From positions 1-64,000 of the forward strand of contig NW_026857312.1 in the NCBI RefSeq assembly GCF_026571515.1: a DNA stretch of 64,000 nucleotides, in the 5' to 3' direction. Position 1 is the stretch's first letter; every line of letters begins with the position of its first letter. This DNA is from Ruditapes philippinarum (taxonomy: Eukaryota). The notes below the pieces were generated by a model that was given only the letters and a program-made list of their open reading frames with translations, did no database searches and was not told the origin of the DNA. Positions 62 through 59,270 of the stretch are shown here, piece by piece. Made by a program: the position numbers and the translations under genes.

Positions 62-862
62 TTAGTGAACAGTGAAGACCATGAAAGACTCAGTCGCCAA
101 AATTAGCTGAACAGTGAAGACCATGAAAGACTCAGTCGCCCAAACTGGCAGAACAGTGAAGACCATGAAAGACTCAGTCGCCCAAACTAGCTGAACAGTG
201 AAGACCATGAAAGACTCAGTCGCCCAAACTAGCTGAACAGTGAAGACCATGAAAGACTCAGTTGCCCAAACTAGCTGAACAGTGAAGACCATGAAAGACT
301 CAGTCGCCCAAACTAGCTGAACAGTGAAGACCATGAAAGACTCAGTTGCCCAAAATAGCTGAACAGTGAAGACCATGAAAGACTCAGTCGCCCAAACTAG
401 CTGAACAGTGAAGACCATGAAAGACGCAGTTGCCCAAACTAGCTGAACAGTGAAGACCATGAAAGACTCAGTCGCCCAAACTAGCTGAACAGTGAAGACC
501 ATGAAAGACTCAGTTGCCCAAAATAGGTGAACAGTGAAGACTATGAAAGACTCAGTCGACCAAACTGGCAAAACAGTGAAACCATGAAAGACTCAGTTGT
601 CCAAACTAGCTGAACAGTGAAGACCATGAAAGACTCAGTTGCCCAAAATAGCTGAACAGTGAAGACCATGACAGACTCAGTCGCCCAAACTAGCTGAACA
701 GTGAAGACCATGAAAGACTCAGTCCACCAAACTGGCAGAACAGTGAAGACCATGAAAGACTCAGTCGCCCAAACTAGCTGAACAGTGAAGACCATGAAAG
801 ACTCAGTTGCCCAAAATAGCTGAACAGTGAAGACCATGAAAGACTCAGTCGCCCAAACTAGC
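62..862. repeat. 42-bp minisatellite, about 19 copies (ctgaacagtgaagaccatgaaagactcagtcgcccaaactag), just downstream of ZFYVE21 exon 6
   Basis: Tandem unit is directly visible; it explains the 14-aa periodic ORFs 62..571 and 541..837. Confidence 0.95.
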
Positions 863-942
863 TTAGAGTTAAATGCTAAATTCTAGTCCTTTTTTACAAA
901 TTCAAAGAGATCAGAGATTACATATCAACAGAAATGTAGTAC

Positions 943-2683: not shown

Positions 2684-4118
2684 AACAAGAGGGCCATGAT
2701 GGCCCTGAGGTCGCTCACCTGTATATAGGCCCCCACCCCCCCCCCCACAACGTTGCAGGGCCAATTTTAACCCAAGGGCTTTTATTTGCACAAACTTGGT
2801 AGACACCCATAAGAAGATGTTTCATGCTAAACATCTAAGCTCTAGCTCATTGGGCTTTTTAAAAGAAGATTTTTTCTTAAGTTTTTACTATACACATATA
2901 GTTAAAAACAATGACACACCTGGGGCGGGGCCAATTTTTGACCCCAGGCTTTTATTTGAACAAACTTGGTAGACACTTATTAGAACATGTTTCATGCTAA
3001 ATATCTTAGCTCTAGCTCTTTGGGTACTTTAAAAGAAGACTTTTTTAAGTTTTTACTATATGCATATAGGGAAAATCAATGACCCCCGGGGCGGGGCCAA
3101 TTTCGACCCCAGGGCTTTTATTTGAACAAACTTGGTAGACACCCATTAGAACATGTTTCATGCTAAATATCTTGGCTCTAGCTTTTTGGGTTTTTTAAAA
3201 GAAGACTTTTTAAGTTTTTACTATATGCATATAGGTAAAATCAATGACCCCCTGGGGCGGGGCCAATTTTGACCCCAGGGCTTTTATTTGAACAAACTTG
3301 GTAGACACTTATTAGAACATGTTTCATGCTAAATATCTTTGCTCTAACTCTTTGGGTTCTTTAAAAGAAGACTTTTTAAGTTTTTACTATATGCATATAG
3401 GGAAAATCAATGACCCCCTGGGGCGGGGCCAATTTTGACCCCAGGGCTTTTATTTGAACAAATTTGGTAGACACCTATTAGAACATGTTTGATGCTCAAT
3501 ATCTTAGCAATAGCTCTTTGAGTTCTTTAAAAGAAGATTTTTTAAGTTTTTACTATATGCATATAGGGAAAATCAATGACCCCCCCGGGCGGGGCCAATT
3601 TTGACCCCAGGGCTTTTATTTGAACAAACTTGGTAGACACCCATTAGAACATGTTTCATGCTAAATATCTTAGCTCTAGCTCTTTGGGTTCTTTAAAAGA
3701 AGATTTTTTTAGTTTTTACTATATGCATATAGGGAAAATCAATGACCCCCTGGGGCGGGGCCAATTTTGACCCCAGGGCTTTTATTTGAACAAACTTGGT
3801 AGACACTCACTAGAAGATGTTTCATGCCAAATATCTAAGCTCTAGCTCTTATGGTTTTTTAAAAGAAGATATTTAAAGTTTTTTCTTTCGGTTGCCATGG
3901 CAACCAGAGTTCTGCATGGAATTAAATTCTTTGAACAATTTTTAAAGGTGACTACCAAAGGAACATTCCTGTGAAGTTTGGATGAAATTGGCTTAGTGGT
4001 TTATGAGGAGATGTCATTTAAAGTAAAAGTTTACGGACGGACGACGGACGGACGGATGGACGCCGGACGAAAAGCGATCACAAAAGCTCACCCTGTCACT
4101 TTGTGACAGGTGAGCTAA
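2684..4118 (-). mobile_element. Non-autonomous Helentron-like element (HINE/pearl type) with about 7 internal 166-bp tandem repeats
   Basis: SubTIR gctcacctg/caggtgagc, terminal palindrome agagggccatgatggccct, hairpin gctcaccctgtcac-ttt-gtgacaggtgagc, (GACG)n microsatellite, and an exact 166-bp period (ccaattt at 2931, 3097, 3263, 3429, 3595, 3761). Confidence 0.85.
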
Positions 4119-18214: not shown

Positions 18215-20240
18215 AACTAGAACTATCGCTGAATGCGATTCATACCCCCACCAATGTCCTTGACAGAAGACCACTTGGAAAGGTGGTTAAGGGAATAATT
18301 TATGTGGCACAAATACATAAAAAGAAATTATCTCTGGTGAAAAAAAGACTAATTGTACAGGTAATAGTATAAATATATATTATCAAAACTGTTCGAAACA
18401 GTTACAAATAACCTTTTCATTTTCCCAATGCATTAAACATTTTATTTATAAGTCAATTTTTGACCTTCAAGTGTGGCCTTGACCTTAATCTGGCACAAGG
18501 GTAAGATGGGTTTTGCACATCACCCATTTTGGGTGAACATTTGAGTAAAGTTTGAAGAAAATCCTTCCATCAGTATAGAATTTATAGAGTAGACACAATA
18601 TATTGTTCTAGTATTGGTTGCATGTAAATTTGAAGACTTAAAAAGGGGATAACTTTGTCAAAATGCAATACAGAGTAATGAAACTTGACCTGCATATCTT
18701 ATTTGCCACATCTCATATATCTTTTAAGTTTCAAGCAAATGCCTGAGCTAGTTTCAGAATTATTCAAGTACATGTTAAAATTTAAGAACATTTTCTAAGT
18801 CAATTTTTGACCTTCAAGTGTGACCTTGACCTTTAGCCGGTACAAAGGTGACATGGATTCTGCACATAACCTTGTTGAGGTGAACATTTGAGTAAAGTTT
18901 GAAGGAAATTCTTCCATTGGTATAGGATTTATAGAGCGGACACAACATATTGTCTAATATTTGATTGTATGTAAATTTGAAGGCATAAAAAGGGGCATAA
19001 CTTTGTTTAAATGCAATACAGAATTATGAAACTTGAAACAGCATATCGTTTTTGTGACCCTTCAAAAATATTTTAAGTATCAAGCAAATACCTTTTCTAT
19101 ATTTAGAATATTTCAAATAAATGTTAAAATTTAAGAATTTTTTCTAAGTCAAGTTTTGACCTTCAAGTGTGACCTTGACCTTAAGCCAGCAAAAGAGTGA
19201 CATAAGTTTTTCACATCCCCTGGTTGAGATGAACATTTGAGCCAAGATTGAAGAAAATCTTTCAAGTAGTGTTGGACTTACAGAGCAGACATGACATAAT
19301 GTGTAATATTAGATTGTTTGATATTTGACCTTCAATTGTGACCTTGACCTTGAGCTGACACATGGGCAACATGGGTTCTGCACATCCCCTTGTTGAAGGG
19401 AATATTTGAGCCAAGTTTGAAAAAAATCTTTCAATTAGTGTAGGACTTACAGAGCGGACACAACATACTGTGTAATATTTGATTGTTTGATATTTGACCT
19501 TCAATTATGACCTTGACCTTGAGCTGGCACATGGGCAACAATGGGTTCTGCACATCCCTTGTTGAGGTGAACATTTGAGCCAAGTTTAAAGAAAATATTT
19601 CAAGTAGTGTAGGACTTACAGAGCGGACACGACATACTGTGTAATATTTAATCGTTTGATATTTGTCCTTCAATTGTGACCTTGACCTTGAGCTGACATA
19701 TGGGCAACATGGGTTCTGCACATCCCCTTGTTGAGGGGAATATTTGAGCCAAGTTTGAAGAAAATCTTTCTAGTAGTGTAGGACTTACAGAGCGGACACG
19801 ACATACTGTGTAATATTTAATTGTTTGATAATTGACCTTCAATTGTGACCTTGACCTTGAGCTGACACATGGGCGACATGGGTTCTGCACATCCCCTGGT
19901 TGAGGTGAACATTTGAGCCAAGTTTGAAGAAAATCTTTCAAGTAGTGTAGGACTTACAGAGCGGACACGACATACTGTGTAATATTTGATAGTGTTTGAT
20001 ATTTGACCTTGAATTGTGACCTTGACCTTGAGCTGACACATGGGCAACATGGGTTCTTGCACATCCCCTTGTTGAGATGAACATTTGAGCCAAGTTTGAA
20101 GAAAATCCTTCAATTGGTATAGGAGTTATAGAGCGGACACGAAAATGGAGACGGACCGACCGACTGACGGACAGACGAGCCCGACCGACGCGACAAAGCG
20201 AACCATTATAGCCCCCCCACATTTTGTGGTGGGGGTATAA
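18215..20240 (-). mobile_element. Helentron-like element with ~169-bp internal tandem repeats
   Basis: SubTIR atacccccacc/ggtgggggtat, terminal hairpin near 20210-20240, (GACC/GACG) microsatellite; repeats carrying tgaccttgaccttg produce the spurious ORFs at 19262-20222. Confidence 0.85.
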
Positions 20241-28651: not shown

Positions 28652-29392
28652 ATGCTTGCCAAGTTATTCCAGATTTTAGCTTTTATATTTCTAGAAAGTT
28701 TGAGTCTTTCTGAGGGCGTAAACATCGTTAATGAAGAACATATCACGGAGCTTATAGAGAAAATAGTTGCTGATAAAACATTGGAATTGAAAATTCAAGT
28801 TCAAAAGCTAGAAAACGTCGTTGAAAACCAACAGTCGCGAATAAACAATCTAGAAAAGGAGGGAAGACGTAATGAAAGAATTATAAGCTATGTACAGAAA
28901 TTGTGGGCTGACATGTATCACGAGCTGAAATCAAATAGCTGGACAACTCCTGATGAAGATTTACCGGATACTGTTAAAGATAACTTTGATGTATCTGCTA
29001 ACAATACTGAGGACAGTTTAATTGGCAAAGACAGAAACGCTTCAATTGATTTAGAACAAAAGCTGGCTACAAGTAGACCAAATTCTAATCGGAGAGACAA
29101 AAGAGTAATGAAATACAGACAGAGGCGTGTTCCGGAGGTTGTCGCATTCACAGCGTATCTGAGTCATAACATTGACCATATGGGACTTGGCCATCATATC
29201 GTATACGATCGAGTTATTACAAATGAAGGGGCAGGATACAATGTTCACACGGGCATATTTACTGCGCCTTTGACCGGACTATACTTATTTACGTACTCAG
29301 CGAATTCCCATTATGTACGAAGCATGTTGGAGCTGGTGGTTGACGGCAATAACATCGTTGATATCATTATTGACCCAGTCTCTAATATAGAG
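28652..29392 (+). CDS. C1qDC copy 1, coding exon 1 (signal peptide, coiled coil, RQRR, N-terminal gC1q)
   Basis: gC1q motifs VAFTA, IVYDRVITNEGAGYN..TGIFTAPLTGLYLF; donor GAG|gtatgt, phase 0. Confidence 0.93.
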
Positions 29393-30214
29393 GTATGTTT
29401 CACGAAATAAAAAAGAGCCCAAAGGCAAATTAAGATATAAAGTAATTTCATTCGCCTTAATTGATAAAACAATATGCATGCAATCAGATTTTAAGTACCC
29501 AAGATATAGCTAGAACTTGTTACTGGTAGGTAACTGGTAGATCGTGGTCAAGATGCGACTCCATGCTTGTCAAAAATGAATTAATCTATAACATGAAAAC
29601 ATATTTATTACTGAATAAAATCTGTGAGAGTTAATGTAATATGCCGACAGTCTAATAAATAGGCTAATTATGTAAAAGCATATACTTATTTCTTTAGCTA
29701 AAAAAGGGTATGTTAATATTAAAGACCGTTTGTTTGTAGACAGGCCACCGGTAATAACCAAACAGGCTAGAATATGTGCGCACTTGATTTCGTACGATGT
29801 TCGTACCTTTACCAGCGACGATTTGTCATGCTATTATTCTTTACCATTTTGGTCGTTCGTTGGTGGTTGTAGGAGACGACCACAACTGCGGCCAGAGCAT
29901 TTCTTTCTAACAAAGTGACACTCTGTGTGGCCACATCCTACCGTGTTAGTCACGACTGGTCATCAAATCATCCCTGGCACTTAGGATGATTTGATCTGCC
30001 GCGTGCTTTCTCCGCGAGCTGAACATCTCCGAAAGAATTCTGTTACGCTTGGTTGTATTATATCGTCACGGGTCTCAAAATATCGGGTCTAATGCATGAC
30101 AATTGAATTACAAAATTAAAACATCTGGACCTTAAATGGTTGAAATATAGATTTGTTCGCATTTTTAGGGTAGATATGCATTATCTAAATCAAGACTTTA
30201 CTGTAGTAAATAGC

Positions 30215-30215
<1 letters not shown>

Positions 30216-30281
<66 letters not shown>

Positions 30282-30298
30282 CGTGTGTGTGTGCGTGT
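30216..30298. repeat. (GT)n microsatellite in the copy 1 intron
   Basis: Directly visible. Confidence 0.95.
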
Positions 30299-30339
30299 TT
30301 TTATAAGCGAAAAATATTGTTGTTATTTTGTATTTGTAG

Positions 30340-30480
30340 ACGATGAGCTCTAACACGGCGATAATTCGCGTAACAAAAGGACAGTCTGTATGGGTTCAAG
30401 AATACAACATACATGAGGGTTCCATTTTTTCAGATAATGTCTGGAGATATTGCACATTTTCTGGAGTGTTTTTATACTGA
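30340..30480 (+). CDS. C1qDC copy 1, coding exon 2 (TMSSNTAIIRVTKGQSVWV...YCTFSGVFLY*); full protein 293 aa
   Basis: ttgtag acceptor, 141 nt including stop, canonical gC1q C-terminal GxxVWV and TFSG motifs. Confidence 0.93.
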   Translation, partial: TMSSNTAIIRVTKGQSVWVQEYNIHEGSIFSDNVWRYCTFSGVFLY

Positions 30481-32403: not shown

Positions 32404-33129
32404 ATGTTAGTCAAAAATCTTAATATCATCGTGTTTCTTTTTGTTGAGACTTTTATTTTGTCTGCAAGTGTTGAGATAGAAAATGAGGTACAGATTACTA
32501 AGCTTGTTGAGCAGATGATAGCAGAAAGGACTTCGGAACTGGCCACCAAAGTTCAGAGTCTAGAAAGAATCGTTACAAATCAGCAGTCACGAATTGAGCG
32601 TCTAGAAAAAAAGGGACAGCGGAGAGGGAGGACAATAATATACATGATAAAATCATTAACAGACTTAAGACAAGAAATGATGTCAAAGAAATTAAAATTT
32701 GTGAAAGAAGACGCCAACACTGACAATGATAATACGGACAGTCACTTCGGAGTGGAAAACGTTACTAGGACCAATGTATCTGTCGACGCAAGAAAAATGT
32801 CGTCAGCTATTCAACCGGGTAAACATAAGGATAATGAAATAATTGGTAAATCAAGACGAAGGCGTGCAATAGAAGTCGTGGCCTTCTCAGTTTACCTTAG
32901 TCACGATATTAATCATATGGGTATTGGACACCATATTGTTTTTGACAAAGCCATTACGAACGATGGAGCTGGATATAACGTTTATACAGGAATATTTACA
33001 GCTCCTGTGTCCGGACTCTACCTATTTACGTTCAGCATGAATGACCGCGACCATACTAGTAATCTACAATTGGTTATGAATGGGTCAAACTTGGTTGACA
33101 TTGTAGACAGTCCTGTTAATAATGAAGAG
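32404..33129 (+). CDS. C1qDC copy 2, coding exon 1 (242 aa, intact frame)
   Basis: MLVKNLNIIVFLFVETFILSA signal peptide, coiled coil, SRRRR, gC1q motifs; donor GAG|gtaagt. Confidence 0.85.
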
Positions 33130-33408: not shown

Positions 33409-33945
33409 CGAATTGAACGTCTAGAAAAGCAGGAAAAGCGGAAAGAAAAGGACAATTATGGAGATGATAAAATCATTAACAGACTTAAGACAAGAAATAA
33501 AGTCAAAGAATATAGTATCTGTGAAGGAAGAAGCCATCACTGTCAACTATAATACGGACAGACACTTCGAAGTGGAAAACGTGACTGGGCTCAATGTTGA
33601 CACGAGAAAAAAGGCTTCAGCTATTCGACCTGGTAAACAAAAGGATAATGAAATAATTGGTAAACCAAGGCGGAGGCGTCAGGTGGAAATTGTGGCCTTC
33701 TCAGTTTACCTTAGTCACGATATTAATCATATATGGGGAGTGGACACCATATTGTTTTTGACAAGGCCATTACGAACGACGGAGCTGGATATAACACCTA
33801 TACAGGAATATTTACAGCTCCAGTGACCGGACTCTACCTATTTACTTTCAGCGTGGTTGACGGCGGCCATATAAGTGTTCTACAATTAGTTAAGGATGGG
33901 TCTAATTTGGTTGACATGGTAGTGAGTCCTGTCAATGATGAAGAG
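33409..33945 (+). pseudogene. C1qDC copy 3, 5'-truncated and frameshifted exon 1
   Basis: Begins mid coiled-coil (cgaattgaacgtctagaa); frameshifts near 33445 and 33731 (split ORFs 33458 and 33733); donor retained. Confidence 0.85.
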
Positions 33946-34420: not shown

Positions 34421-34561
34421 TCTATGAGCAGCAACACGGTGATAGTTCATGTAAACAGAGGACAGTCAGTGTGGATTCAGGAGTATACACATAACGATGG
34501 GTCAATACGTTCGCGTGAACATTGGCGTTACTGTACATTTTCTGGATTTCTTGTGTATTAA
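34421..34561 (+). CDS. Intact C1qDC exon 2 (SMSSNTVIVHVNRGQSVWIQEYTHNDGSIRSREHWRYCTFSGFLVY*), the only one available to copy 2
   Basis: ttgtag acceptor, open 141 nt, AATAAA just downstream. Confidence 0.85.
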   Translation, partial: SMSSNTVIVHVNRGQSVWIQEYTHNDGSIRSREHWRYCTFSGFLVY

Positions 34562-34759: not shown

Positions 34760-37015
34760 GATTCTGTATTTTTGTAAAATAATCTAATCCAAGACTTTAT
34801 TGAGGGACCAAAATTAAAAAAACTCTATAACCTTGTGCTTAAAATTCCATGACACAGTATCAAATGCAGCTGCAAAAGCAATTAAAAGCAATAACCCTGG
34901 AATGTTATGCTTTTCAGAGTGAAATAATAAATCATAAAGCATTCTTATGTTGAAAACCATTAGCCTGCCTGGCAAAAACCCAGTTTGATCTTCATTTATA
35001 ATATCTTTTAATTTATTTTTCAGTCTAAAAGCTATTGATAATGCAATCTTGTACGAGACATTTAGTAAAAAGATACGTCTCCATTTTTTTCAAAATTTTA
35101 TACAATTTACCTTTGTTTCCTTTAGGAATACAAGTTATAACTCCTTGTCTTTGAGTAATTGAGTAACTGAAAGTTTTCCTATATAATATGCATAATTAAC
35201 TGATCTAACAAGTAAAAGTCCAATATCACTCCAGTAAAAATTATAAAATTCAACAGTAAAACCATCATTTCCTGGGTTTGTATTGTTTGACATTCGTTTT
35301 AAAGAATCTAACATTTCATTATAATGTTAATTCTCCCTCAGTTGATAGCTTACTATTTTCTGACAATTTAGGTATGTTAGACCCTCCAAGAAGTTTTACT
35401 AAGGATATGTTATCTATTTCCCTTTCTTTGTATAAATTCTACTTCACTTCAACCAAAATTTCTTCTTGAGTTCTTAAAATCTGACCATTTTCTGAGATTA
35501 GTGAATTCATTAATTTTGAAACATAGTTTCTGTTTTCAAGATTGCAAAAATACTTTGTGGGTTTCTCTCCTTCAAGTATCCATTTAGCTTTGGATCTTAT
35601 AAAATTACCTTCCATTTTTTTTTCTCAAATTTAAAAGCTCTGATTTTTTGGCGTCCAGCAATTCATAATTAATAATTTGTTCTTTTTTCAATGTTCTCTA
35701 TTTCTTGAGTGAGACTCTTTTCTTTATCTACCTCTAGTTTTTTCTTATGTGAGGAATAGCTTATAGTCATTATTAATAATGTCTCAAAAATAATTGGTCA
35801 TTAATATCAAATCAGAGGAATATCATTAATATTATTATTTTCTGGTATATTTGTTGCATATTGGGTTTTTGTATCAAAAATAACCGTTTTTACTTTATTT
35901 ACATAAATATCATCTCGAAGAAGGGAATTGTTAAATTTCCAATATGAATTACCTTTTTGAAATTTTCCGAACTCTAATGACGTAAAAATTAAAGAATGAT
36001 CTGTACGATATCCAGGTAAAATCTTAGTATTGTCAAGATCAGTATAGAGATAGTCTGAAATTTAAAAAAAATCAAGACCCGCCTCAGCACCTCTAATTTG
36101 AGCAATCTTTGTACAAATTTACAAATTATTACTATATTGCCATCTTTCTGGTAGTTTCCAATTCTATGAGCTATGTCTAAATCTGGTCTGTTAATTTTGA
36201 TCATCAGTTTATCGTCCATAATTTTCATCACCTTCTTACATGTTTGTTCTTCTGTTTCCTCTAGATTGTCTGGAACACCGTACAAGCGGGGACTGTTTCG
36301 ACGAGTATACTGCTCAATATTATTATTTCTAATCTCACCTGATTTTATTCTTATATCTTGTGCCTCCACTTTTTCTTCCAATTCTACTTTATCACTCCTC
36401 AATCTATTATTCTCAGATTCAATAACATCCAATTTCCTCTCCAAATCTGAGATTTGGTTCCTCATTTCTTCAACATTGGATTCCACCGTTGAAATTCGTG
36501 TTACTTATATCGTCACTTCCTCTCTAACACTGTTGATCTCTTTCTGAACATCTGCTCTTATTGAGTGTTTTAAATCATCAAGTTTCTTAGTGAGTATTGA
36601 TTTTGTTATCATTTCTTTTATTTTTGTTTCAATGAATTCCTGTGAGGCAAGTTTGTCCAACCTGTCCTGCATGTTCTTTAGTAAGTCGCTCATATCATCA
36701 GAGGTAGTATATGATTTTAAATGTTCATTCAGAGTAGGTTGTGTTAAAACATCACTATGTTTATCATTTTGTTTGCCTGTTTTCTGTGTGTGTCTTAAGC
36801 AGTGCTACTGGGCTAGCTGGAAGAGATGTATCAGCCTCTGAATTCTCGTCTAATTGTTTCACTCGACCTTGCCCTCGCACCAGTTGCAGTATCCTTATCT
36901 TTTGCCATTTTGCAATATTATTGCAATGTTTATCTGTTAATACACACCGTTATATGTAGAGAAATAAGCACACACTGTAACTGTCGACAAAAAACGCTCA
37001 GCTAAGCTACGTGTT
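34760..37015 (-). mobile_element. Decayed L1/Tx1-clade non-LTR retrotransposon with internal deletion
   Basis: ORF1-like coiled coil with EQYTRRNS.RLYGVPD and DIAHRIG (35989-36693). ORF2 fragments ILPGYRTDHSL, YWKFNNSLL, RSKAKWILEGEKPTKYFCNLE, PGNDGFTVEFY and AFDTVSW, with stops and frameshifts. Confidence 0.88.
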
Positions 37016-37249: not shown

Positions 37250-37695
37250 TCCTCCATGGTAATAATTACACTTTCCATTATAGTGATTACAATTTCCATG
37301 GTAATGGTTTTACTTGCCATGATAGTGATAACAATTCCCAAGGCAATGATTACACTTGCCATAATAGTGATTATAATTCCCATGGTAATGATTACACTTG
37401 CCATGATAGTGATTACAATTTCCATGGTAATGATTACACTTGCCATGATAGTGATTACAAATTCCAAGACAATGATTACACTTGCCATGGTAGTGATTAT
37501 AATTTCCATGGTAATGATTACACTTGCAATGATAGTGATTATAATTTCCATGGTAATGATTACACTTGCCATTATAGCGATTACAATTTCCAAGGCAATG
37601 ATTACACTTCCATTAAAGTGATTATAATTTCCATGGTAATGATTACACTTGCCATGATAGTGATTATAATTTCCATGGTAGTGGTTACTTTCCAT
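37250..37695. repeat. 42-bp (2x21) minisatellite, about 10 copies (ccatggtaatgattacacttgccatgatagtgattacaattt)
   Basis: Directly visible; produces low-complexity ORFs on both strands. Confidence 0.9.
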
Positions 37696-41075: not shown

Positions 41076-43557
41076 ATGTTAGTCAAAATACTTAATATCA
41101 TAGTGCTTCTTTTTGTCGAGACTTTTATTTTATCTGCAAGTGTTGCGAACAGATTACTAAGCTTATTGAGCAGATGATAGCAGAAAGGATTTCGGAACTG
41201 GCCGACAAAGTTCAGAATCTAGAAAGAATCGTTACCAATCAGTAGGCACGAATTGAACGTCTAGAAAAGCAGGAAAAGCAGAGAGAGAGGACAATAATGG
41301 ACATGTTAAAATCATTAACAGACTTAAGACAAGAAATAAAGTCAAAGAATATAGTTTCTCTGAAAGAAGAAGCCATCACTGTCAACTATAATACGGACAG
41401 ACACTTCGAAGTGGAAAACGTGACTAGGCTAAATGTATCTGTTGACACAAGAAAAAAGGCTTCAGTTATTTGACAGGGTAAACAAAAGGATAATGAAATC
41501 ATTGGTAAAGCAAGACGAAGGCGTGAGACGGAAGTCGCGATAACTTGAAAAGTACTGAAAATATTTTTATGAAACTTGATATATGGATAGATGGCAGTAT
41601 GGAGATTATGCACGTCTTTTTCTTTTCTTCCTATGTTGAAACATTTGGTCGTTATGGCAACAAATAGACTTAAAATATGGCAAATTTAAGAAAATGGATC
41701 CCGTAATAACACAAAAAGTACTGAATGTTTTTTATGAAACTTGAAATATGGGTAGATGGCAGTCTGGAGATTATGCACGTCTTTTTCTTTTCTTCCTATG
41801 TTGAAAATTCTGGTTGCTATGGCAACAAATAGACTGAAAATATGCCAAATTTTACACATAAACTGGATCCTGTGTTAACGCAAAAAGTAATAGAAATATT
41901 TTTATGAAACTTGTAATATGGGTAGATGGCAGTCTGGAGATTATGCACGTTTTTTTCTTTTCTTCCTATGCTGAAAATTCTGGTTGCTATGGCAACAAAT
42001 AGACTGAAAATATGGCAAATTTTACACATAAACTGGATCCAGTGTTAACGCAAAAAGTAATAGAAATATTTTTATGAAACTTGACATATGGGTAGATGGC
42101 AGTCTTGAGATTATGCATGTCTTATCTGTTCTTCCTATTTTGAAAAAATATTGGTTGCCTTGGCAACAAATAGGCTTAAAACATGGCAAATATAACAATA
42201 TTTGTGATTAGTCAAAAAGAGCTGAAATTTTTTATGAAATTGCATCTTTAATTCAAGAGTTATCTCCTCTTTAAGAATTTTGCTTTTAAAAATGTTATAT
42301 TTTGGTAACAGGGATGTTTCAAATATTAACTTTAGAGTGTCCTTTAGTCCGTCTGTCTGTCTGTTCATAAAAACTGTTTCCTGTGATCATTTGATAACTC
42401 AAAAAGTACTGGAAATATTTTTATGAAACTTGATATATGGGTAGATGGCAGTCTTGAGATTATGCATGTCTTATCTGTTCTCCCTATTTTGAAAAAATAT
42501 TGGTTGCCTTGGCAACAAATAGGCTTAAAACATGGCAAATATAACATTGTTTGTGATAAGTCAAAAAGAGCTGAATTTTTTTTATGAAATTGCATCTTTA
42601 ATTCAAGAGTTATCTCCTCTTTAAGCATTTTGCTTTTAAAAATGTTATATTTTGGTAACAGGGATGTTTCAAATATTAACTTTAGAGTGTCCTTCAGTCC
42701 GTCTGTCTGTCTGTTCATAAAAACTGTTTCCTGTGATCACTTTTAAAGAACTTTTCCAACAAATTTACTTAAAATATAGAAAAATTGACGTATTAGTGAA
42801 TGGCCATTGGCCCTTCAGAATGTTGATGGGGTTCTAACCGGTAGGGGACTTATGGATTGCTTGCAATACTATGATAATTGCTTGTTGACAAAGCCATTTC
42901 TAACGATGGAGCTGGATATAACGTTAATACAGGAATATTTACAGCTCCTGTAACAGGACTCTACCTATTTACTTTCAGCGTGAATGACGGCGTCCATATA
43001 AATGTTCTACAATTGGTTATGGATGGGTCTAATTTGGTTGACATTATAGACAGTCCTGTCAATAATGCACAGGTAAATGCATTGTTTAGTGTAAAACAAT
43101 CAAGCTTATACAAAGGCTATTACACATTAAAGGGCGTAATAGACACGCAGCGACTTTTCATAAAACGATAAAATCGAGCCTTTCATTTGTTCATAAACCT
43201 GTGTTTCTGTAAGTCTAAAATATGTCAAATGTGCGATTAAAGAAATGGTATCTGTGTCTTCCAATAAACAATAACAGGAAAAGATAATAACGTTAAAAAC
43301 TTATGCATTCATTTAAAAAAATTGCAGAATATTCTTTGTAAAAAGGATAAGAAAGTTTAGATCAGAATAATCAATATAATAATATTTTATATAATAAGTG
43401 TCATTATCTTGTAGACTATGAGTAGCAACACAGGGTGATAGTTCATGTAAACAAAGGACAGTCGGTATGGATTCAGGAGTATGCACTAAACGATGCATCA
43501 ATACTTTCGCGAGAAATTTACCGTTACTGCACATTTTCTGGAATTCTTCTGTATTAA
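41076..43557 (+). pseudogene. C1qDC copy 4 pseudogene (exon 1 41076-41537 and 42887-43072; exon 2 43415-43557)
   Basis: Net 13-nt deletion near 41145, in-frame TAG and TGA, transposon insertion, 2-nt insertion in exon 2. Confidence 0.92.
41538..42886 (+). mobile_element. Helentron-like element inside the gC1q-coding exon of copy 4, 5' end deleted
   Basis: Reverse complement of the 14040-14365 repeats and of the 11366-11411 terminus (accggtaggggact...gcaatactat...gcttgtt). Confidence 0.88.
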
Positions 43558-46511: not shown

Positions 46512-46632
46512 ACAATAAACTCCACTACTGCGATAATTCATGTGACTAAGGGATCGTCTGTATTGGTTAAAGAATATGCCATTCATGAGGGTTCAATATT
46601 TTCAAATAATATCGGAAAATATTGTAAATTGT
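46512..46632 (+). pseudogene. Orphan copy-1-type exon 2 relic (TINSTTAIIHVTKGSSVLVKEYAIHEGSIF)
   Basis: Aligns to exon 30340-30480; acceptor AG mutated to TG. Confidence 0.75.
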
Positions 46633-47218: not shown

Positions 47219-47383
47219 TTTTGGACAGTTGTGCATGCGTGTGGCAGCACAATATCTCCATCGAGTACAAAAAAATCTTTACTTGTTTGTATTTATATAT
47301 TTATGTAATAAATTTTGACTTGAACACATTGATCCATTTAATAATAATAATAACAAGTACATTATTCAACACGATATGTTCTT

Positions 47384-48573
47384 GGTAAATCAAGACGAAG
47401 GCGTGAGACGGAAGTTGTGGCCTTCTCAGTTTACATTAGTCACAATATTAATCATATGGGGATTGGACACCATATTGTTTTTGACAAAGCCATTACAAAC
47501 GACGGAGCTGGATATAACGTTTATACAGGAATATTTACAGTTCCAGTGACCGGACTCTACCTATTTACGTTCAGCGTGAGTGACCGCGACCGTTTAACTG
47601 TTCTACAATTGGTTATAGACGGGTTTAACTTGGTTGACATTAAAGACAGACCTGTCAATAATGCACAGGTAAATTCATGTTTATTGTAAAACAATCAAGC
47701 TTATGCAAAGGCTATTGCAACATTAAAGGGCGCGGGGACCTTTCATTAAACTTTCATTTGTTCATTAGCCTGTGTTTCTATAAGACTTAAGGTGATTCCG
47801 CTTTGTCAGCGATGTTTGATTTCACCAAGTCTGTCCAAAGTGAATTCATATATTAACAAAAAAGATTACAATGTAAAATGATGACCCATTTGAAAGTACA
47901 CATCCAGGTCTATGTTTTAAAGACTATTAAAAACAAAAATAAAAATGATAACAATAAGAATATTTACTTTGAATGTGCTACATTTATGAAGACCAAATAC
48001 AATCTGTTGTCAAGTTGTATGCACATTTTATGAATGGCAAAATCCAGTTTAAAGTCTGTTTTAGTGCAGACAAATGCTAATTTTTGCAGCAAATACATTG
48101 TGAGCTTTTTTGTTATATGAATTTTGGCCAACTTTCACTTTGGACAGACTTGGTGAAAACAAACATGGTTGACAAAGCAGATCGAATCACCTTAAATGTG
48201 CCAAATGTGTTACTACAAACATGCACCGATTAAATAATTGGTATCTTTCAAACAATAAATGTGTCTTTCAATACACAATAATAAGAAAATATAATAACAT
48301 TTAAAAGTTATGCATTAAATTCATTTAAAGAGTTTTGCGGAATATTGTTTGTAAAAATATATATCAAAGTTTAGATCAGAATATTCCATATAATAATATC
48401 TTATATACTAATTAAGTGTTATTATCTTGTAGACCATGAGCAGCAACACGGTGATAGTCCATGTAAACAAAGGACAATCGGTATGGATCCAGGACTATGC
48501 ATTAAACGATGCGTCAATACTTTCGCGTGAAATTTACCGTTACTGCACATTTTCTGGAATTCGTCTGTATTAA
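47384..48573 (+). pseudogene. C1qDC copy 5, head-only remnant (exon 1 part 47384-47668; exon 2 48433-48573)
   Basis: 5' flank acacgatatgttctt is joined directly to ggtaaatcaagacgaagg; ATG, signal peptide and coiled coil are deleted, while the gC1q frame and splice sites remain open. Confidence 0.82.
47791..48191. mobile_element. 401-bp MITE with TTAA TSD, Kolobok-like
   Basis: ttaa|ggtgattc...gaatcacc|ttaa, ~60-bp imperfect TIRs (ttcaccaagtctgtccaaagtgaa); empty site gtcttaaatgtg near 51320. Confidence 0.85.
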
Positions 48574-49659: not shown

Positions 49660-49800
49660 ACAATAAACTCCACTACTGCGATAATTCATGTGACAAAGGG
49701 ATCGTCTGTATTGGTTAAAGAATATGCCATTCATGAGGGTTCAATATTTTCAAATAATATCGGAAAATATTGTAAATTTTGTGTTGTATCTTTTCATATA
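49660..49800 (+). pseudogene. Orphan copy-1-type exon 2 relic
   Basis: ORF 49654..49836 TINSTTAIIHVTKGSSVLVKEYAIHEGSIFSNNIGKYCKF; no AG acceptor. Confidence 0.75.
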
Positions 49801-50455: not shown

Positions 50456-52052
50456 ATGTTAGTCAAAATTCTTAATATCATAGTGTTTCTTTTTGTTGAG
50501 ACTTTTATTTTATCTGCAAGTGTTGAGATAGAAAATGAGGTACAAATTACTAAGCTTATTGAGCAGATGATAGCAGAAAGGACTTCGGAGCTGACGAACA
50601 AAGTTCAGAGTCTAGAAAGAATCGTTACAAATCAGCAGACACGAATTCAGCGTCTAGAAAAACAGGAAAAGCGGAGAGAGAGGCAATAATTGACATGGTA
50701 AAATCATTAACAGACTTAAGACAAGAAATAAGTCAAAGAAATTAGAATCTGTGAAAGAGAATGCCAACACTGTCAACTATAATAAGAACAGTCACGTCGG
50801 AGTGGAAAACGAGACTAGGCTCAATGTATCTGTTGACGCAAGAAAAAAGGCTTCAGCTATTCGACAGGGTAAACAAGAGGATAATGAAATCATTGGTAAA
50901 TCAAGACGAAGACGTGAGACGGAAGTTGTGGCCTTCTCAGTTTACCTTAGTCACGATATTGATCATATGGGGATTGGACACCATATTGTTTTTGACAAGG
51001 CCATTACGAACGAAGGAGCTGGATATAACGTCAATACAGGAATATTTACAGCTCCAGTGACCGGACTCTACCTATTTACTTTCAGCATGAGTGACGGCGA
51101 CCAAACAAGTGTTCTTCAATTGGTTATGGATGGGTCTAATTTGGTTGACATTATAGACAATCCTGTCAATAATGAATTGGTAAATGCATTGTTTAATGTA
51201 AAACAATTAAGCTTATGCAAAGGCTATTGCACATTCAAGGGCGTAATGGACACGCAGGGACCTTTTATAAAACGATAAAATCGAGCCTTTGATTTGTTCA
51301 TTAACCAGTGTTTCTGTAAGTCTTAAATGTGTCAAATGTGCGATTAAATAAATGGTATCTTTCAAACCATAAATATGTCTTCCAATACACAATAATAAGT
51401 AAATATAATAACATTAAAAACTTATGCATTCATTTAAAGATCCTGTAACACATTTTTTTCATGGCTTTATTTCATAAATATGACGCTCAAATTAAGATTT
51501 GTCAATCTTGTAAGTTCAAATAAGCATTATCTATAAAGATATTACCCAATTTAACATTTTGCGTAAATAAAGGGAGGTAATTAGAAATTTATTTTCTATA
51601 AATTCCAAGTCAAATTTTCCAATAAGAAATGAATGCATGTAACTTATTGATTAAATATAATGTGCACAAATATTTGCAGTACACATTTTACATATTCTTG
51701 GATGTTTGAAAATTGTTTTATTTGCATAATTATATACATATATAATATTTTGCAAGTGTGTGATACATACAGTAACAATATCAATCACAAAACATACAGG
51801 ATCTTTAAAGATTTTTGCAGAATATACTTTGTAAAAAGATTAGCAAAGTTTAGATCTGTACAACCAATATAATAATATTTTATATACTAATTTAGTGTTA
51901 TTATCTTGTAGACCATGAGCAGCAACACGGTGATAGTTCATGTAAACAAAGGACAGTCGGTATGGATCCAGGAGTATGCATTTAACGATGCGTCAATACT
52001 TTCGCGAGAAATTTACCGTTACTGCACATTTTCTGGAATTCTTGTGTATTAA
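50456..52052 (+). pseudogene. C1qDC copy 6 (exon 1 50456-51179; exon 2 51912-52052) with two 1-nt deletions; young pseudogene or assembly error
   Basis: Exon 1 is 724 nt versus 726 nt in copy 7: gagagg[a]caata near 50683 and gaaata[a]agtc near 50730. Exon 2 is intact. Confidence 0.75.
51438..51804. mobile_element. 367-bp MITE with TTAA TSD, Kolobok-like
   Basis: ttaa|agatcctgta...tacaggatct|ttaa; absent from paralogous introns. Confidence 0.8.
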
Positions 52053-53653: not shown

Positions 53654-53794
53654 TCTATGAGCAGCAACATGGTAATATTCTATGTATACAACGGTCAGTC
53701 CGTATGGATTCAAAGGTATGTAGTCAACAATGCCTCAATCTTTTTGGATGATAATTATCGGTATTTTCTAGGGTTTTTGTTTAGTCTCATGTGA
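53654..53794 (+). pseudogene. Divergent orphan C1qDC exon 2 with open frame and AG acceptor (SMSSNMVIFYVYNGQSVWIQRYVVNNASIFLDDNYRYFLGFLFSLM*)
   Basis: catgtag|TCTATGAGCAGCAAC; aligns to the other exon 2 copies but lacks the CT of YCTFSG; has no exon 1 of its own. Confidence 0.7.
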
Positions 53795-57344: not shown

Positions 57345-57485
57345 ACAATAAACTCCACTACTGCGATAATTCATGTGACTAAGGGATCGTCTGTATTGGT
57401 TAAAGAATATGCCATTCATGAGGGTTCAATATTTTCAAATAATATCGGAAAATATTGTAAATTTTGTGTTGTATCTTTTCATATA
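57345..57485 (+). pseudogene. Orphan copy-1-type exon 2 relic
   Basis: ORF 57339..57521 has the same translation as 49654..49836; no AG acceptor. Confidence 0.75.
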
Positions 57486-58062: not shown

Positions 58063-58788
58063 ATGTTAGTCAAAATTCTTAATATCATAGTGTTTCTTTT
58101 TGTTGAGACTTTTATTTTTTCTGCAAGTGTTGAGATAGAAAATGAGGTACAAATTACTAAGCTTGTTGAGCAGATGATAGCAGAAAGGACTTCGGAGCTG
58201 ACGAACAAAGTTCAGAGTCTAGAAAGAATCGTTACAAATCAGCAGACACGAATTCAGCGTCTAGAAAAACAGGAAAAGCGGAGAGAGAGGACAATAATGG
58301 ACATGGTTAAATCATTAACAGACTTAAGACAAGAAATAAAGTCAAAGAAATTAGAATCTGTGAAAGAGAATGCCAACACTGTCAACTATAATAAAAACAG
58401 TCACGTCGGAGTGGAAAACGAGACTAGGCTCAATGTATCTGTTGACGCAAGAAAAAAGGCTTCAGCTATTCGACAGGGTAAACAAGAGGATAATGAAATC
58501 ATTGGTAAATCAAGACGAAGGCGTCAGACGGAAGTTGTGGCCTTCTCTGTTTACCTTAGTCACGATATTGATCATATGGGGATTGGACACCATATTGTTT
58601 TTGACAAGGCCATTACGAACGACGGAGCTGGATATAACGTCCATACAGGAATATTTACAGTTCCAGTGACCGGACTCTACCTATTTACGTTCAGCGTGGG
58701 TGACGGCGGTCATTATAATGTTCTACAATTGGTTTTGGATGGGTCAAACTTGGTTGACATTGTAGACAGTCCTGTTAATAATGCACAG
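58063..58788 (+). CDS. C1qDC copy 7, coding exon 1 (242 aa, intact)
   Basis: Signal peptide, coiled coil, SRRRR, gC1q motifs; donor CAG|gtacat, phase 0. Confidence 0.92.
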
Positions 58789-59129
58789 GTACATGCATGT
58801 TTATTATAAATAAATTACAAGCTAATGCGAAGGCTATTGTATATTAATTAAAGGGCTCAATAGACACGCAGGGACCTAAAAAACACAATAAAATTTAGTC
58901 TTTCTTTTTGTTCGTTAACCTGTATTACTATTAGACTTAAATGTGTCAAATGTGTTACAACAAACATGGACGGTATCTTACAAACCAAATAAGAAAAGAT
59001 AAGATTAAAAAAGTTATGCATTCATTTAGATATTTGCTGAATATTATTTGTAAAAATATAGCAAATTTTAGATCAGAATAATCAATATAATAATATTTTA
59101 TATACCAATTAAGTGTTATTATCTTGTAG

Positions 59130-59270
59130 ACCATGAGCAGCAACACGGTGATAGTTCATGTAAACAAAGGACAGTCGGTATGGATTCAGGAGTATGCACT
59201 AAACGATGCGTCAATACTTTCGCGTGAAATTTACCGTTATTGCACATTTTCTGGAATTCTTCTGTATTAA
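59130..59270 (+). CDS. C1qDC copy 7, coding exon 2 (TMSSNTVIVHVNKGQSVWIQEYALNDASILSREIYRYCTFSGILLY*); full protein 288 aa
   Basis: cttgtag acceptor, open 141 nt, AATAAA near 59283. Confidence 0.92.
   Translation, partial: TMSSNTVIVHVNKGQSVWIQEYALNDASILSREIYRYCTFSGILLY

What the first reader, a model, noticed from the sequence alone, without database searches (positions are those of the whole stretch)
58696..58719. Hypervariable loop in otherwise near-identical gC1q paralogs
Seen: the loop between YLFT(F/Y)S and L(Q/E)LV differs in every copy: ANSHYVRSM, MNDRDHTSN, VVDGGHISV, VNDGVHINV, VSDRDRLTV, MSDGDQTSV, VGDGGHYNV. Copy 6 (51087-51110) and copy 7 differ at 9 of 24 nt and 6 of 8 residues here, against roughly 7 substitutions by my count over the first ~470 coding nt. 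Further variable patches lie at the exon junction (DSPVNNEE, DRPVNNAQ, DNPVNNEL) and in exon 2 (EYTHNDGSIRSREHW vs EYALNDASILSREIY). Inference: diversifying selection or short-tract gene conversion at ligand-contacting loops, a CDR-like pattern in an invertebrate receptor.
Basis: partly seen in the sequence, partly recalled or inferred. Interest (0 to 1): 0.72.

Follow-up and report, generated by a model that had tools for sequence, protein, structure and literature searches.

The report
Recombining clam C1q genes, fast-evolving loop
A tandem cluster of clam C1q-domain genes swaps pieces between copies, and one surface loop changes its amino acids about twice as fast as silent sites, likely tuning what the proteins bind; this is a clear case of a process already known in bivalves.

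Summary
The seven loop sequences and the 9/24 versus 7/470 counts are correct. The locus is a tandem array of bivalve C1qDC genes (signal peptide, coiled coil, gC1q head); copy 7 is a Ruditapes philippinarum protein and its intron is spliced in transcript contigs.

The framing needs three corrections. Only copies 1, 2 and 7 have intact frames. Copy 1 is a distant lineage whose loop is invariant in three alleles. The copy 6/7 contrast comes from a crossover: copy 6 is copy-7-like to CDS nt 604 and another lineage from nt 627 (p=5e-6). Other pairs differ 7-13% in the 5' half.

The loop (strand C-D hairpin) is still special. It has 20 replacement against 4 silent changes, omega about 2, P=0.005 against a neutral loop. 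Other clam C1qDC clusters give 0.30-0.86. Site models are weaker once recombination is allowed (p 0.03-0.13).

The three patches are the family's usual variable loops (CD, EF, GH), predicted to meet at the trimer apex. No somatic or CDR-like mechanism was seen, and no ligand is known. Tandem duplication plus episodic selection is published for oyster C1qDC.

The parts
28652..30480 (+). Copy 1: intact C1qDC gene of a distant lineage (exons 28652-29392, 30340-30480); loop 29300-29326 ANSHYVRSM
   Evidence: equals P0161
32404..34561 (+). Copy 2: intact frame (exons 32404-33129, 34421-34561; exon pairing inferred from similarity to h2); loop 33037-33063 MNDRDHTSN
33409..33945 (+). Copy 3: 5'-truncated, frameshifted exon-1 fragment inside the intron of copy 2; loop 33853-33879 VVDGGHISV
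41076..43557 (+). Copy 4: broken (13-nt deletion, stops, about 1.3 kb repeat insertion near 41540-42880, 2-nt insertion in exon 2); loop 42980-43006 VNDGVHINV
47382..48573 (+). Copy 5: start codon, signal peptide and coiled coil deleted; head exons remain; loop 47576-47602 VSDRDRLTV
50456..52052 (+). Copy 6: recombinant (copy-7-type 5' part, h3-type loop and intron); two 1-nt deletions after 50683 and 50729; loop 51087-51113 MSDGDQTSV
51057..51080 (+). Crossover interval of copy 6, in the conserved strand B-C region, 7-30 nt before the loop
   Evidence: 35 of 39 informative sites match copy 7 before it, 58 of 61 match h3 after it
58063..59270 (+). Copy 7: intact, spliced C1qDC gene, 288 aa (exons 58063-58788, 59130-59270); equals P0007
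58696..58722 (+). The variable patch, residues 212-220 VGDGGHYNV: end of strand C, CD hairpin, start of strand D
   Evidence: strands 204-214 and 219-225
58762..58788 (+). EF loop, residues 234-242 (exon-junction patch)
59187..59237 (+). GH loop, residues 262-278 (exon-2 patch; two states)
58513..58524 (+). RRRR at residues 151-154, a furin-type basic motif (name recalled) just before the head
57345..57467 (+). Orphan relic of a copy-1-type exon 2, repeated at 46512-46625 and 49660-49782 (marks the duplicated unit); another degraded exon 2 at 53654-53782

Best explanation
This is a birth-and-death tandem array of clam C1qDC genes whose copies are recombinant mosaics, and whose CD loop has likely been under moderate diversifying selection (omega about 2) because it likely forms part of a binding surface at the predicted trimer apex.

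SHOWN: seven copies, three with intact frames; exchange between copies; copy 6 joins a copy-7-type stalk to another lineage's loop and intron; replacement changes cluster in the loop; copy 7 is spliced.

INFERRED: unequal crossover made copy 6 (a hybrid directly upstream of its 5' parent is the expected product); the excess of replacements reflects selection; the proteins are secreted trimers that act as pattern-recognition or lectin-like molecules; loop changes alter binding. The sharp copy 6/7 contrast is the crossover laid over this modest selection.
For: Recombination: PHI p<=0.0005 for exon 1 and 0.0035 for the head; 56 of 336 triplets reach p<=0.0005; copy 6 p=5e-6. Copy 6 vs h3 differ at 3 of 75 nt from the loop to the end of the h3 exon and at 10 of 260 in the intron.

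Selection: loop has 20 replacement and 4 silent minimum changes; extra alleles by codon position are 7/11/4 in the loop against 22/14/29 elsewhere. A simulated neutral loop at matched silent depth gives a mean of 11.1 replacements, P(>=20)=0.005; omega 2 gives 19.0. Fixed-site omega is 1.9-2.9. The three intact type-B genes alone give 13 N and 2 S, ratio 2.2-2.7, p 0.004-0.025. Controls: 7 other clusters of the same genome give 0.30-0.86 and 16 pooled pairs 0.32, against 1.75 here. Copy-7-type transcripts in runs X8 and X9 carry G216H, 2 of 8 and 2 of 6 coding differences.

Structure: model pLDDT 85.5, best match collagen X gC1q. Trimer score 0.95, best of 3 controls 0.00, runs agree in at least 95% of contacts, pLDDT 90; the interface list includes 213, 218, 220, 229-239, 241-252, 272 and 276-279. 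That mark was reached by 21 of 30 solved pairs and 0 of 23 single chains (eukaryotes 17 of 29 and 0 of 30). gC1q trimers are solved, so the pass may be from memory.
Against: Site models are marginal. M1a/M2a p=0.042 and M8a/M8 p=0.013 with four partitions, with no site above 0.90. Head only: p=0.027 on one tree, 0.088 and 0.13 with partition trees. Loop-only N versus S is not significant (ratio 1.27, p=0.45); with the loop's own tree and rate p=0.089. A 1.5-fold deeper local genealogy raises P to 0.10. Copy 2 vs h2, both intact, give a ratio of 0.98. The loop was chosen after seeing it. Five of the 8 sequences analysed are broken. G216H may be one doublet event (P=0.20). No binding data exist, and several variable residues lie at the modelled subunit interface.
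Confidence: 0.62

Rival explanations
1. Relaxed constraint only. The CD loop is a tolerant surface hairpin drifting neutrally in redundant or dead copies, and recombination brings older loop lineages together.
For: CD is the least conserved region across 135 gC1q proteins (0.25 modal identity against 0.56-0.83 in strand regions). Loop replacement rate is 2.9-4.0 times the rest in 3 of 7 control clusters. Five of 8 sequences are broken. Partitioned site models give p 0.09-0.13. Copy 2 vs h2 ratio 0.98.
Against: A fully neutral loop at matched depth gives P=0.005, about 0.02 after allowing for four apical loops. The loop's 4 silent changes match that depth (3.9 expected). The excess persists in intact genes. 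Only 4 of 22 extra alleles are CpG-compatible.
Confidence: 0.25
2. Donor-cassette system. Broken copies persist as germline donors whose loops are copied into intact genes, with breakpoints guided by the conserved strand B-C sequence just before the loop.
For: The copy 6 breakpoint lies 7-30 nt before the loop. 52% of informative site pairs in the head are incompatible. Contigs with copy-3 diagnostic letters and its intron start occur in 4 of 4 DNA runs. Transcript contigs show loop states in new combinations, read by hand from difference tables: H-I-S in X17, H-L-S in X12, an N-S-R type in both. P0047 has VDDNDRISA.
Against: Only one breakpoint is located. The copy 6 tract runs at least 300 nt, through the intron. 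No intact gene carries an exact loop of a broken copy. The spliced H-I-S contig has 10 other differences from copy 7, far fewer than copy 3 has, so it is not copy 3. Recurrent mutation explains the homoplasy equally well.
Confidence: 0.08
3. Copy 6, or its two deletions, is an assembly artefact (a chimeric join or single-base errors).
For: No contig in 4 of 4 DNA runs shows the deletion after 50683, and none shows the copy 6 letters at 51104 and 51106. One deletion lies in a short A run.
Against: Those runs lack the copy-6-type loop altogether, so they cannot test it, and contigs show presence only. The same loop lineage occurs on a second contig (h3). Copy 6 differs from both parents and has its own intron insertion. 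Mosaicism is seen in other copies as well. This bears on copy 6 only, not on the loop excess in intact genes.
Confidence: 0.1
4. The variable residues tune which subunits assemble together (homo- versus heterotrimers), not which ligand is bound.
For: Residues 213, 218, 220, 234-239, 241-244, 272 and 276-279 are in the modelled subunit interface.
Against: The best-supported contacts involve core residues 160-162, 184-185, 205-209, 247-251 and 281-285, which hardly vary. Residues 215-217 are not listed as interface. Apical inter-subunit grooves can also bind ligands (own knowledge).
Confidence: 0.08

Closest known systems
Bivalve C1qDC tandem clusters, secreted coiled-coil type (sC1q-like type 2), Crassostrea virginica (PMC6835236; search passages plus sections 2.4 and 3 read in full)
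   Same: Tandem duplication by unequal crossover, about 250-290 aa two-exon genes, episodic positive selection on a few head sites, purifying selection on the rest.
   Different: That paper places selected sites more often in the C-terminal part of the domain, has 0 occurrences of 'gene conversion' and 0 of 'loop', and did not map sites on a structure. Here the signal is in the CD loop, a within-exon crossover is located, and most copies are broken.
Vertebrate gC1q trimers: collagen X NC1 (1gr3), C1QL1-3, Caprin-2, cerebellins, C1q
   Same: Ten-stranded gC1q fold (Foldseek E 3e-13, TM 0.90 to 1gr3). An apical loop serves as the binding site in EMILIN1 (PMC3342094, passages).
   Different: 30% identity or less. 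The clam protein has a coiled-coil stalk and no collagen repeat, and its ligand is unknown.
Orthologous-type clam proteins: Mercenaria mercenaria P0004 (XP_053376348.1) and unnamed P0003
   Same: 65-74% identity over the aligned head; loops VNDHFDRSM and FNDHYRISV at the same place.
   Different: Not tested for tandem copies or selection.
Antibody CDRs and pseudogene-donor conversion systems such as chicken immunoglobulin genes (recalled, no call)
   Same: Variable loops grouped at one end of a beta-sandwich; broken copies next to intact ones.
   Different: No somatic diversification, no single expression site and no donor directionality are shown. Different fold.

Membership tests
C1qDC (gC1q domain) | C-terminal C1q domain PF00386 | tested here: met
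   47.3 bits against cut-off 23.7 for exon 1 of copy 7; copies 1 and 2 likewise; exon 2 matches profile positions 86-127
C1qDC (gC1q domain) | Jelly-roll beta-sandwich fold | tested here: met
   (predicted model; TM 0.90 to collagen X NC1)
C1qDC (gC1q domain) | Trimeric head | tested here: inconclusive
   score 0.95 against best control 0.00, but solved relatives exist, so it shows likeness rather than binding
Secreted coiled-coil C1qDC (type 2) | N-terminal signal peptide | tested here: inconclusive
   hydrophobic helix at residues 2-20; no signal-peptide predictor available
Secreted coiled-coil C1qDC (type 2) | Coiled-coil stalk, no collagen repeat | tested here: met
   helix 28-106, weak trimeric coiled-coil Pfam hit below cut-off, no Gly-X-Y run in the sequence
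Positively selected bivalve C1qDC clusters | Sites with dN/dS above 1 in the head | tested here: inconclusive
   p from 0.0002 to 0.13 by model; best estimate omega about 2
Lectin-like pattern-recognition C1qDC | Binds glycans or microbes | not testable with these tools
   needs recombinant protein
CDR-like somatic diversification | Variants generated within an individual | not testable with these tools
   only assembled contigs were served, no raw reads
Pseudogene-donor gene conversion | Short tracts from broken copies found in intact genes | tested here: inconclusive
   mosaicism shown, but no exact donor tract in copies 2, 7 or h2

The most novel reading that the evidence does not exclude
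The array is a germline loop-shuffling system. Crossovers in the conserved strands just before the CD loop put new apical loops on the same stalk, broken copies serve as a standing donor pool, and selection keeps new loops. If the two deletions in copy 6 are assembly errors, copy 6 is an intact product caught in the act.
Probability: 0.12. Interest if true: 0.65.

Novelty: new member of a known kind. Interest (0 to 1): 0.33.

Why it matters
PMC6835236 states that the sites used for microbe recognition in bivalve C1qDC proteins are practically unknown. This cluster offers natural near-isogenic variants that point to residues 213-219 as a testable specificity site in an aquaculture species. Copy-7-type transcripts differ by G216H, and copy 6 puts a different loop on the same stalk. 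It also shows that intragenic recombination must be modelled before reading selection in these clusters. The overall process is already known.

Tried and rejected
1. Loop-specific hypermutation as the cause of the copy 6/7 contrast: rejected. The divergence continues through the rest of exon 1 and the intron, and follows h3.
2. CpG hypermutability: the loop is CpG-rich (7.9 against 2.5 per 100 nt), but only 4 of 22 extra alleles are CpG-compatible.
3. Mutually exclusive splicing of head exons: no pyrimidine-tract acceptor found before the copy 3 or copy 5 pieces by a simple pattern. Transcript contigs showed only the canonical intron. This is a weak test.
4. More alleles: the metagenome scan gave 240 pattern hits and 0 confirmed. 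Protein searches gave 6, 10 and 4 hits.
5. Verifying the copy 6 deletions: undecided.
6. Controls: 80 loci were used from the 150 listed hits; 77 covered the loop. 32 loci in 7 clusters and 32 in 16 pairs entered the count; the other 13 had no partner under 25% divergence or were redundant.
7. Copy 1 and h1 were left out of all selection tests as too distant. Unreliable edge columns of copies 4, 5 and h3 were masked.
8. Papers naming gC1q loops at the apex: searches gave nothing usable except EMILIN passages.
9. No earlier findings of this scan.

Full report
IDENTITY. The window is G000:C5799:1-64000 of a 1.41-Gb assembly with a large C1q family (976 candidates, 150 scored). Copy 7 (58063-58788 plus 59130-59270) encodes 288 aa identical to P0007, a Ruditapes philippinarum record. 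It has a hydrophobic N-terminal helix, a long helix at 28-106, a disordered linker, RRRR at 151-154 and a gC1q head. Contigs of four runs from up to four studies join its two exons; two are on record as RNA, two are unlabelled but spliced.

OBSERVATION. The seven loops, the 9 of 24 nt, the 6 of 8 residues and the 7 substitutions in 470 nt are all correct. Replacement changes cluster there beyond chance (scan-corrected p=0.0009).

Only copies 1, 2 and 7 have open frames. Copy 3 is a truncated, frameshifted fragment in the intron of copy 2. Copy 4 has a 13-nt deletion, stops and a 1.3-kb insertion. Copy 5 lacks its 5' end. Copy 6 has two 1-nt deletions and stops at codon 78. Four DNA runs could not verify those deletions, because they do not show the copy-6-type loop at all. 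A second contig, C9720, holds three more copies: h1 (copy-1 type, frameshifted), h2 (intact, P0001, loop MNDIDHISN) and h3 (broken, loop MRDGGQTSV). Whether it is an allele or a paralogous segment is unresolved. Copy 1 is a distant lineage with the same loop in three versions. The exon-2 patch has two states.

RECOMBINATION. Copy 6 matches copy 7 at 35 of 39 informative sites up to CDS nt 604, and h3 at 58 of 61 from nt 627 through the first 200 intron columns (p=5e-6). The crossover lies at 51057-51080, just before the loop. Other pairs differ 7-13% in that half. Exchange is general: PHI p<=0.0005, and 56 of 336 triplets reach the permutation floor. A hybrid upstream of its 5' parent is what unequal crossover gives (inference). 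Repeated orphan exon-2 relics before copies 5, 6 and 7 mark the duplicated unit.

SELECTION, FOR. I used eight type-B sequences (copies 2-7, h2, h3). Tree-free minimum counts give 20 replacement and 4 silent changes in the loop, against 35 and 24 in the rest of head codons 157-236; the ratio to the silent rate is 1.75, p=0.04. Simulating a fully neutral loop at the flanks' silent depth gives P(N>=20)=0.005, and omega 2 fits. Fixed-site omega is 1.9-2.9. The three intact genes alone give 13 and 2, ratio 2.2-2.7. Seven other clusters and 16 pooled pairs from the same genome give 0.30-0.86, so this cluster stands out. Broken copies raise its ratio somewhat, and the window was chosen on this cluster. 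CpG mutation explains at most 4 of 22 alleles.

SELECTION, AGAINST. My own M1a/M2a and M7/M8/M8a fits (fixed nucleotide trees, scaled) give p 0.013-0.042 for the whole gene with no site above 0.90. For the head they give 0.027 on one tree but 0.088 and 0.13 when partitioned. Loop-only N/S is not significant. A deeper local genealogy weakens the simulation to 0.037 and 0.10. Copy 2 vs h2 looks neutral. I rate selection as likely, not proven.

POPULATION VARIATION. Copy 7's loop recurs unchanged in P0002 and in loose ends of runs X1 and X7. G216H occurs in X8 and X9, and an H-N-N form in X15. Further loop types appear in transcript contigs of X12 and X17 and in P0047. These were read by hand from truncated tables (54 and 106 rows not shown) and are qualitative. 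Only contigs were available, so somatic change was not testable.

STRUCTURE. The patches are the CD hairpin (212-220), the EF loop (234-243) and the GH loop (264-280); the strand letters are recalled gC1q nomenclature laid on the DSSP. They are the least conserved regions in 135 relatives: 0.25, 0.29 and 0.34 against 0.56-0.83. Strand alternation puts all three at the end opposite the stalk (inference from topology). The trimer model (0.95, best control 0.00; possibly from memory of solved gC1q trimers) lists residues of all three in the subunit interface.

MECHANISM. Likely a secreted trimer with an apical binding surface. Unequal crossover makes, breaks and shuffles copies, and selection favours new CD-loop residues. 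Ligand binding, secretion, trimer formation and cleavage are inferred, not shown.

KNOWN WORK. PMC6835236 (passages, and sections 2.4 and 3 in full) reports tandem duplication by unequal crossover and episodic positive selection at 4-11 sites per cluster in oyster C1qDC, and says the binding sites are unknown. From PMC10672478 I saw one passage, noting no invertebrate crystal structures. From PMC3342094 I saw passages on an apical binding loop in EMILIN1. Searches listed no paper on chimeric or converted bivalve C1qDC genes (listings only). The library omits most subscription papers, and I read no supplements or figures; the oyster site map in Figure 3b could overlap this loop.

VERDICT. A real feature and a clean example of a known process. 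New member of a known kind; interest 0.33.

Noticed in passing
window 58513-58524 (also copy 2; RDKR and RQRR in copy 1): A basic furin-type motif (name recalled) lies just before the gC1q head in all three intact copies, so the head may be released from the stalk.
   Followed up: no
window about 51433-51808: About 380-bp insertion in the copy 6 intron with short inverted ends and an apparent 8-9 bp target duplication, MITE-like; similar pieces lie at two places on C9720.
   Followed up: partly
window about 41540-42880: 1.3-kb insertion with 170-bp and about 350-bp tandem units splits exon 1 of copy 4 and replaces about 70 coding bases.
   Followed up: partly
window 35989-36504, minus strand: 171-aa stop-free frame with a coiled coil followed by a motif that recalls LINE ORF1 proteins (recalled, not searched).
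   Followed up: no
window 47382-48573 and 50967-52052: Public annotation lists copies 5 and 6 as 117-aa proteins starting at an internal Met (P0157, P0158). These lack the signal peptide and the first head strand.
   Followed up: partly
G000:C9720 about 28500-48600: Second cluster with three related genes; it aligns to the window only around the cluster, at about 80-89% identity. Allele or paralogue unresolved.
   Followed up: partly
window 66-863, 37253-37688, 2758-3883, 19155-20142: 42-bp and 166-169-bp tandem repeats; the 42-bp arrays give long repetitive open frames.
   Followed up: no
window 59242, run X8: A copy-7-type transcript changes Cys280 to Ser, a residue unchanged in the six exon-2 copies compared.
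   Followed up: no
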